Below are positions 3,038 through 3,236 of a DNA stretch of 64,000 bases, piece after piece. The stretch comes from Eledone cirrhosa (lineage: Eukaryota). Within the stretch, counting starts at the first letter, position 1, and every line of letters starts with the position of its first letter. Below the pieces are notes generated by a model, which searched no databases, was not told where the DNA came from, and saw nothing but the letters and a program-made list of their open reading frames with translations. The stretch is taken from NCBI GenBank assembly GCA_964016885.1, contig OZ024746.1, positions 78,988,001 to 79,052,000 on the forward strand. Direction: 5' to 3'. A program made the translations under genes and the position numbers.

Positions 3038-3236
3038 TATAGGAGAAAGTATGACCCCGACGGCAGAGCTCAAGCCGTTTCGACGGCTATTTCTGGACTA
3101 AAATAGCCGTCGAAACGGCTTGAGCTCTGCCGTCGGGGTTATACTTTCTCCTATTACCCACTCTACTACCCTAAGTATTGAGTACTCTGGTGCGTTATGG
3201 TCCATCTGGTTCCTTACCACAACTCCTTCGTTATAT
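3038..3236 (+). mobile_element. Foldback element of a PLE-like hammerhead family (3' half of ribozyme plus inverted copy)
   Basis: Arms 3038-3100 and 3101-3155 are inverted. The right arm reads GAAA-CGGC-TTGAGCTCT-GCCG-TC-GGGGT (stem III, GUC site, stem I strand), then the family tail ACCCACTCTACTACCCTAAGTATTGAGTACTCTGGTGCGTTATGGTCCA, ending in (TA)n. Confidence 0.7.

What the first reader, a model, noticed from the sequence alone, without database searches (positions are those of the whole stretch)
3038..3236. Recurrent foldback family: a hammerhead 3' half duplicated as an inverted repeat
Seen: six copies (3038, 9697, 11318, 19164, 35771, 57055) are palindromes built on GAAA-CGGC-(loop with GAGCTC)-GCCG-TC-GGGGT, i.e. 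ribozyme stem III, GUC site and stem I strand (decayed in some copies). The CTGANGA half is replaced by an inverted copy. The inversion axes differ in detail but cluster in or beside the stem II region. In most copies the short arm stops at ...TTCCTAT and runs into TA-rich repeat. Inference: independent integration events repeatedly template-switch at the stem II hairpin and resolve by TAT microhomology, turning a ribozyme retroposon into a MITE look-alike.
Basis: partly seen in the sequence, partly recalled or inferred. Interest (0 to 1): 0.7.

Follow-up and report, generated by a model that had tools for sequence, protein, structure and literature searches.

The report
Penelope hairpins fold at RNA start
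These hairpins are short head-to-head leftovers of a very abundant Penelope-type jumping gene, and they fold at one sharp spot inside its self-cutting-RNA motif, likely because two DNA copies ran off the start of the element's RNA and were joined, which would leave the RNA's front end with only half a ribozyme.

Summary
The palindromes are real (4 of 6 full, 2 partial) and belong to a family of roughly 10^5 insertions. They are pseudo-LTR stubs of a Hydra-clade Penelope-like element (RT plus GIY-YIG ORF) whose hammerhead has the UUGANAA (U3-A8) core, not CUGANGA. Inverted pLTR plus one-sided tail is the published PLE signature; this is no MITE. The clustering is confirmed but is sharper than 'stem II': arms stop at the A of an Initiator-like TYAGTY, 40 nt before the predicted cut site (53 of 78 truncated arms in subfamily A, 68 of 82 in B, within 3 nt), also where no hairpin is predicted. 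An unrelated family stops 31 nt after a TATA box. Arms end at two fixed sites (+20, +100), one each, both with TAT against (TA)n. Best model: two cDNAs primed on opposite target strands run off the RNA 5' end and are end-joined; snap-back at stem II fits about 3-5 of 122 pairs. No RNA data tested the start. The scan reached this run-off reading before for other families of this genome; particular here is that the start would lie inside the ribozyme.

The parts
3039..3099 (-). Short arm: element positions -40..+20 (cut site = 0), read on the minus strand; ends at site 1 (TCCTAT) in TA; its 5' end is the A of TTAGTC
3100..3234 (+). Long arm: about -34..+100, ends at site 2 (CGTTAT) in (TA)n
3101..3139 (+). 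3' half of the type I hammerhead: stem II 3' strand, GAAA (3112-3115), stem III with GAGCTC loop, GTC (predicted cut after 3134), stem I 3' strand
3155..3234 (+). 80-nt one-sided tail between site 1 (3154) and site 2 (3234); part of the 5' UTR of the parent
9698..9805 (.). Subfamily B foldback, two short arms (-33..+16 and -34..+20), no tail
11318..11514 (.). Foldback: long arm on minus strand (11318-11459), short arm on plus (11453-11514)
12098..12335 (+). Non-inverted 5'-truncated copy keeping the hammerhead 5' half (core 12178-12185, C3-A8 form) and the TTTAGTCC boundary (A at 12223); stem III deleted; ends at site 2
19164..19348 (.). Subfamily B foldback: long arm minus (to -25), short arm plus (from -38)
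28974..29041 (+). Tail-only copy (+32..+99)
35771..35922 (+). Subfamily B long arm (from -37) with a 12-13 nt inverted remnant
57055..57224 (.). Foldback: long arm minus, stopping at -40 with a G before it; short arm plus (-2..+20)

Best explanation
The hairpins are pseudo-LTR stubs of a Hydra-clade Penelope-like retrotransposon inserted in (TA)n, likely made when two cDNAs, primed on opposite strands of the cut target at two fixed RNA sites (+20 and +100), ran off the RNA's 5' end at -40 and were joined head to head. Shown: parent anatomy (upstream region, hammerhead, sites +20/+100, ATG near +195, RT-GIY-YIG ORF); one arm per site; TAT overlap at both sites; a sharp upstream edge at the A of TYAGTY; junctions with short overlaps, blunt joins or small insertions. 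Inferred: -40 is the transcription start (Initiator-like, TATA-like word at -29..-35 and CCAAT near -90 from it); both target strands prime; host end-joining closes the gap; long copies come from priming on the uncleaved 3' copy of the same sites. Consequence (inferred): the start lies inside stem II, so the RNA's 5' end carries only the 3' half of the ribozyme and only the downstream pLTR could self-cleave; the 'missing half' is promoter-side DNA that is never in the template.
For: Parent with RT and GIY-YIG and Hydra motifs. Ends at +20/+100: 29 mixed pairs against 1 same-type among 30 classifiable pairs in the random, window and incidental sets (independent choice gives at most half mixed). 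TAT register kept, including 19 of 98 site-1 ends where the target replaces the C; 59 of 84 pairs have TA at both ends. 5' ends: 53 of 78 truncated A arms and 68 of 82 truncated B arms at -39..-41 (hand tallies of the first 100 rows). 8 of 8 tandem units that follow 5'UTR/ORF pieces restart at -38..-41. TYAGTY is kept in 12 of 12 aligned parents while the loop before it diverges. Second family: 70 of 70 truncated arms start at or after ACAGTT, 0 at -4..-9, TATATAA at -31 in 2 of 3 parents. Two cDNAs: short arm reaches further than long arm in 31 pairs, by about 900 nt in L036 and L060; L177 has an extra base beyond -40 on both arms; arms of different subfamily type in L075 and L185. Base before -40 is G in 16 of 38 against 19 of 133 elsewhere. 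In vitro, a Penelope protein nicks and extends both strands and starts internally at two sites flanking the tail (PMC11167929); D. virilis Penelope starts transcription in the pLTR (PMC2377424).
Against: No RNA evidence for the start. The extra-G signal is weak in subfamily B (7 G, 21 C, 2 A among 30 ends at -40) and in the second family (7 G, 6 C), and many G's can come from the partner arm. The TATA-like pattern for this family was loosened after seeing the data and overlaps stem II. Ends also spread over -38..-31, which needs trimming. Most pairs have arms of the same subfamily and several share private variants (L055, L177, L182), which also fits one template or snap-back. The 31:11 ratio is biased because short arms under about 22 nt escape detection. 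Site2/site2 pairs exist among long copies (L040, L048). D. virilis Penelope's promoter is internal, whereas the motifs here lie upstream of the start. Only 2 of 100 rows end at the predicted cut site, so cleavage is not shown.
Confidence: 0.72

Rival explanations
1. Two cDNAs as above, but -40 is a reverse-transcription stop or an RNA processing site inside stem II, not the transcription start.
For: In A parents -43..-37 is the 3' strand of a stable inner stem; ends spread over -41..-31; no RNA data.
Against: Same edge in subfamily B, where one of two parents folded leaves -40 unpaired; edge follows a conserved sequence word, not a stem boundary; 18-22 of 100 arms read straight through; second family has TATA at -31; tandem units restart at the same base.
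Confidence: 0.12
2. One reading: one cDNA primed at +100 folds back at the stem II hairpin, copies itself and is resolved at TCCTAT by microhomology.
For: Clustering in the stem II region; arms usually same subfamily; loop-retaining products exist (L016, L024); small inverted pieces at 5' ends of long copies (L038, L053).
Against: Such products are about 3-5 of 122 pairs; 31 pairs have the short arm longer upstream; solo copies end at site 1 (17 of 47 singles); other TAT words in the tail (+45, +66) are essentially unused; both arms often reach -39/-40 with 0-3 nt between them, too tight for a fold-back; 0 of 100 second-family rows show the snap-back junction of its own 5' hairpin.
Confidence: 0.07
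3. Self-priming on an antisense transcript makes the head-to-head palindromes (proposal of Arkhipova et al. 2013).
For: Published reading of junction palindromes in rotifer Penelope elements (PMC3846280).
Against: Does not predict two fixed outer ends each overlapping the target by TAT, solo copies with either end, or an inner edge at a sense-strand Initiator-like A.
Confidence: 0.05
4. A preformed foldback amplified as a unit (MITE or hairpin master).
For: One junction recurs in about 18 of 100 B rows.
Against: 80 distinct junctions among 84 pairs; unequal ends, no matching terminal repeats; the same junction occurs with -40 on the short arm (L004, L061) and on the long arm (L029, L075); arms carry subfamily variants of the autonomous parents.
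Confidence: 0.02

Closest known systems
Hydra clade of endonuclease-positive Penelope-like elements (Craig et al. 2021, PMC8557442; passages, section 11, supplement searches)
   Same: C-terminal GIY-YIG, DKT, CxCx5C linker, no CCHH, CxxC and CxH, (TA)n targets, hammerhead, partial tandems, inverted 5'-truncated copy, one-sided tail.
   Different: RWR for RWK; unit about 3.3 kb (estimate from separate copies) against 'generally <3 kb'; tail 80 nt against 30-40; U3-A8 core with long stems II and III; my three motifs had 0 hits in that supplement, whose octopus family Hydra-1_Obim has another protein and a CUGAAGA core.
Poseidon of Anolis in vitro (Frangieh et al. 2024, PMC11167929; parts 1-2 of 4)
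   Same: Two internal start sites flanking the tail, downstream of the hammerhead; both strands nicked and extended; uncleaved RNA used; predicted dimer.
   Different: They report priming at a site not homologous to the target and no strand difference in start site; here both sites overlap the target by TAT and pairs use one site each. They do not describe run-off at the RNA 5' end in the parts read.
Penelope of Drosophila virilis and Adineta vaga (PMC2377424, part 2 and passages; PMC3846280, parts 2-3 and passages)
   Same: Transcription start or Inr-like word inside the pLTR; inverted pLTR with junction palindromes and optional tail.
   Different: Palindromes were read as antisense self-priming; promoter in D. 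virilis is internal; copy numbers are small and no shared inner breakpoint was reported in the parts read.
PLE hammerheads (Cervera and de la Pena 2014, PMC4209133; parts 1-2 of 4)
   Same: Type I hammerhead in the pLTR, U3-A8 covariant known from Schistosoma, palindromic loop 3, motifs on opposite strands near each other.
   Different: Here stem III is 5 bp with a 9-nt loop and stem II is long, and the putative start splits the motif.
L1 twin priming and retroviral strong-stop DNA (recalled, no call)
   Same: Two primers from the two target strands; short cDNA running off a capped 5' end.
   Different: In L1 the inverted part does not duplicate the direct part; strand transfer of the short cDNA is not shown here.

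Membership tests
EN+ Penelope-like element | Single ORF with RT followed by GIY-YIG endonuclease | tested here: met
   Motifs FIQFDIESYY, YRDDGL and VYQ..YIG in natural copies; 34-40% identity to full-length homologues. No Pfam or PDB hit; no intact full ORF seen.
EN+ Penelope-like element | Partial tandem forming a pLTR before the ORF | tested here: met
   L222, L224, L236, L238
EN+ Penelope-like element | Inverted 5'-truncated copy and one-sided tail | tested here: met
   25 of 44 random insertions are head-to-head pairs, 21 of them site1/site2; tail 80 nt
Hydra clade | DKT, CxCx5C linker, no CCHH, CxxC and CxH motifs | tested here: met
   HSDKTG, CNCPDGSTC, one Cys between VYQ and YIG, CNLC, CKH read by eye against section 11
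Hydra clade | RWK motif | tested here: inconclusive
   RWR in most copies, KWR in one
Hydra clade | Placement in the Hydra clade by RT phylogeny | not tested
   Only visual likeness to the supplement alignment; no tree built
Hydra clade | (TA)n targets | tested here: met
   59 of 84 pairs TA at both ends, 21 at one, 4 at none
Type I hammerhead | Core boxes and three stems | tested here: met
   TGANAAG with N = A/G/T/C in 28 of 29 parents, position 3 T in 23 and C in 6; three-way fold; 93.7% of cells paired, 3 pairs with two-sided change (modest). No Rfam hit.
Type I hammerhead | Self-cleavage | not testable with these tools
   2 of 100 rows end at the cut site; inconclusive
MITE | Matching terminal inverted repeats, fixed internal sequence, fixed TSD | tested here: not met
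   Ends unequal by 80 nt; 80 distinct junctions of 84; a TA TSD cannot be read inside (TA)n
Non-LTR retrozyme | Non-coding head-to-tail arrays of ribozyme units | tested here: not met
   Copies are head-to-head stubs or truncations of a coding element

The most novel reading that the evidence does not exclude
This Penelope-like element starts transcription inside its own ribozyme, so that the pLTR is organised like U3-R-U5 of an LTR: only the 3' copy can self-cleave, both target strands prime near the RNA's 5' end at two dedicated sites, and the short run-off cDNAs are strong-stop intermediates that either transfer to the 41-nt repeat at the cleaved 3' end (building the pLTR and the tail) or fail and are end-joined as foldbacks. 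Against the transfer step: long arms pair with long arms in 13 of 18 cases and no cut-site-to-start junction was seen in 100 rows.
Probability: 0.25. Interest if true: 0.8.

Novelty: new variant of a known kind. Interest (0 to 1): 0.52.

Why it matters
How Penelope-like elements make their inverted and tandem ends is called undefined in the 2021 paper read. About 10^5 natural products give countable rules: one arm per start site, TAT pairing with the target, and a base-sharp inner edge. They favour two-strand priming over self-priming and can be tested directly in the existing in vitro system. If -40 is the start, foldback axes map PLE promoters without RNA data, and a start inside the ribozyme would explain how a self-cleaving motif can sit in both terminal repeats without cutting off the 5' end. 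It also warns that such hairpins will be misfiled as MITEs or miRNA precursors.

Tried and rejected
Rfam on the window gave only microsatellite-driven miRNA matches among the 150 of 291 rows shown and no hammerhead on a full parent. Pfam and PDB gave nothing for ORF pieces; the Atlas gave no answer. Sequencing runs: no RNA holder listed; contigs cannot show a start, so none were laid. Ends at the ribozyme cut site or cut-site-to-start joins: 2 and 0 of 100 rows, inconclusive. Between-insertion divergence was not obtained (one search stopped early; about 5 of its 81 rows were mis-anchored, so its 8.6% within-pair figure is rough). The 'templated or not' filter was too permissive and its p-value is not used. 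The pooled 64:1 test is not used because the tail-pattern set is selected for a long arm. The 30 best hits and the long set are biased and were left out of the clustering counts. Literature searches for the two-cDNA or run-off reading found no paper stating it; subscription papers and the Frangieh supplements were not seen. A search for a mollusc Initiator consensus found nothing, so that label is recalled from Drosophila.

Full report
Coordinates: element positions count from the predicted hammerhead cut (C of GTC = 0). The window is G000:C6:78988001-79052000 in a 3.0 Gb genome. The host was not determined by me; an earlier scan note calls it octopus.

1. Observation. All six sites hold the family. 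Four are full palindromes, two partial; two more copies were missed (12098-12335, non-inverted with the 5' half; 28974-29041, tail only). A tail 29-mer has 12,175 exact genomic hits against 0 for the reversed control. In 99 evenly spaced 10-kb stretches (100 asked, 1 did not exist) there were 46 insertions, 2 dropped at edges; of 44, 25 are head-to-head pairs and 19 single arms, several of the latter with tiny partner remnants.

2. Parent. Non-inverted copies lead upstream into an RT plus GIY-YIG ORF; copies that continue past +100 lead through a 5' UTR to an ATG near +195 and the RT. Partial tandems (L222, L224, L236, L238) form the pLTR. The protein has DKT, RWR, CxCx5C, no CCHH, CxxC and CxH, matching the Hydra clade as described in PMC8557442 section 11; no tree was built and Pfam/PDB gave no hit. 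The ribozyme is a type I hammerhead with core TTGANAA, N varying over all four bases (29 parents; 6 have C at position 3), a long stem II and a GAGCTC loop 3. The U3-A8 covariant is reported in PMC4209133. Rfam does not detect it.

3. Outer ends. Arms end at +20 or +100. In the random, window and incidental sets 29 pairs are mixed, 1 is site1/site1, 9 have an eroded end. Both sites end in TAT overlapping (TA)n: 63 of 98 site-1 ends read CC-TATA, 19 more have the target replacing the last C in register; 69 of 100 site-2 ends read TTAT-ATAT. Other TAT words of the tail are essentially unused. Solo and kilobase-long copies use either site, so site 1 is an initiation site. This matches the two internal start sites that flank the tail in vitro (PMC11167929), although that paper reports no homology to the target.

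4. Inner ends. The end rate at -47..-32 is 25 times that elsewhere in the random set (43 ends in 424 nt at risk, 20 in 5,018). At base level (hand tallies of the first 100 listed rows; both arms of one insertion can appear): subfamily A (093 hits) -37:5, -38:6, -39:20, -40:19, -41:14, -42:2, -43:3, -44:2, -45:7, read-through 22; subfamily B (267 hits) -36:3, -37:1, -38:6, -39:30, -40:30, -41:8, -42:3, -43:1, read-through 18. Position -40 is the A of TTAGTC, TCAGTC or TTAGTT, kept in 12 of 12 aligned parents while the loop upstream diverges; its likeness to the Drosophila Initiator is recalled. It lies mid-strand in the inner stem of A and is unpaired in B parent L215. Units that run into the ORF start at -38..-40 when not in a partial tandem (L231, L232, L233, L234, L239), and 8 of 8 tandem units after UTR/ORF pieces restart at -38..-41. 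Upstream lie a loose TATA-like word (28 of 29, pattern chosen after the fact) and CCAAT about 90 nt before the A (20 of 29). The base before -40 is G in 16 of 38 against 19 of 133 (p 5e-4), as cap copying would give (recalled), but this is weak in B and partly explained by the partner arm. Independent check: a second foldback-plus-tail family found de novo has 70 of 70 truncated arms starting at or after ACAGTT, none at -4..-9, with TATATAA at -31 in 2 of 3 parents (the third at -40 after an insertion) and CCAAT at -84..-93; a third family stops at CAGATT with a TATA-like word at -32 in the one parent held. I read -40 as the RNA 5' end.

5. One cDNA or two. Snap-back of the long arm cannot make a short arm that reaches further upstream; this occurs in 31 pairs (11 the other way, 30 within 8 nt; ratio biased by detection), by about 900 nt in L036 and L060. 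Products that keep the stem II loop, as hairpin pairing predicts, are L016, L024 and L032, perhaps L171 and L132, of 122 pairs. Junctions are overlaps (31), blunt (23) or insertions (30) of 84, with 80 distinct types, as end-joining of two single-stranded overhangs would leave (recalled). L177 has an extra base beyond -40 on both arms. Two pairs have arms of different subfamily type (L075, L185), but most match and some share private variants, so one RNA or two RNAs of one source usually serve. Long arms pair with long arms in 13 of 18 cases, suggesting that both primers use the same end of the RNA: the 5' copy of the sites gives short foldbacks, the uncleaved 3' copy gives long ones.

6. Comparison. 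Inverted pLTR plus one-sided tail is the published PLE signature (PMC8557442; PMC3846280), so the object is a new family of a known kind. The published reading of the palindromes is antisense self-priming. Five searches found no paper with the two-cDNA run-off reading; subscription papers and most supplements were not seen. Earlier notes of this scan hold two-strand priming (e1-9877229, e1-10342927, e1-9539494) and run-off at the RNA start for other families of this genome (e1-10326993, e1-9926904); my notes predate seeing them, and they are not counted as support. Particular to this family is that the start would fall inside the ribozyme.

7. Verdict. Real, abundant, known architecture. Confidence in the PLE identity about 0.97, in the full mechanism 0.72; interest 0.52.

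Noticed in passing
window 6121-6389: Foldback of another family with a CTGATGA..GAAAC hammerhead in both arms and its axis next to AGATT.
   Followed up: partly
window 19375-19700: Another foldback-type family (CTGATGA core on the minus strand, axis at CAACT), directly beside copy 4.
   Followed up: no
window 11545-11700: CTGATGAGG hammerhead stub of a further family right after copy 3; such stubs pile up in the same TA tracts.
   Followed up: no
L240, L241, L244 (about 1390-1700): Second foldback family, 3,658 exact hits, with CCAAT, TATA at -31 and a sharp arm edge at ACAGTT; it shares an upstream TCTGGAGCCACTTTT box with the third family's parent L259.
   Followed up: partly
L252-L263: Third foldback family, 287 exact hits, edge at CAGATT, read-through copies rare.
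   Followed up: partly
L223:1730-2700 (oriented) and L238:2374-3036: ORF pieces of at least two other Hydra-like families adjacent to this one.
   Followed up: no
L220, L225, L227, L230-L233, L239: Tandem joints in which a -40 unit follows a 5'UTR/ORF piece: likely template jumps from the RNA 5' end to internal positions.
   Followed up: partly
window 16283-16405, 17378-17575, 18917-19105, 25233-25360, 37302-37489: A dispersed repeat with about 7 window copies (TTGTTTCTAC..GGCACAAGGCCAGC), probably a SINE; not examined.
   Followed up: no
window 17910-18109: 200-base assembly gap.
   Followed up: no
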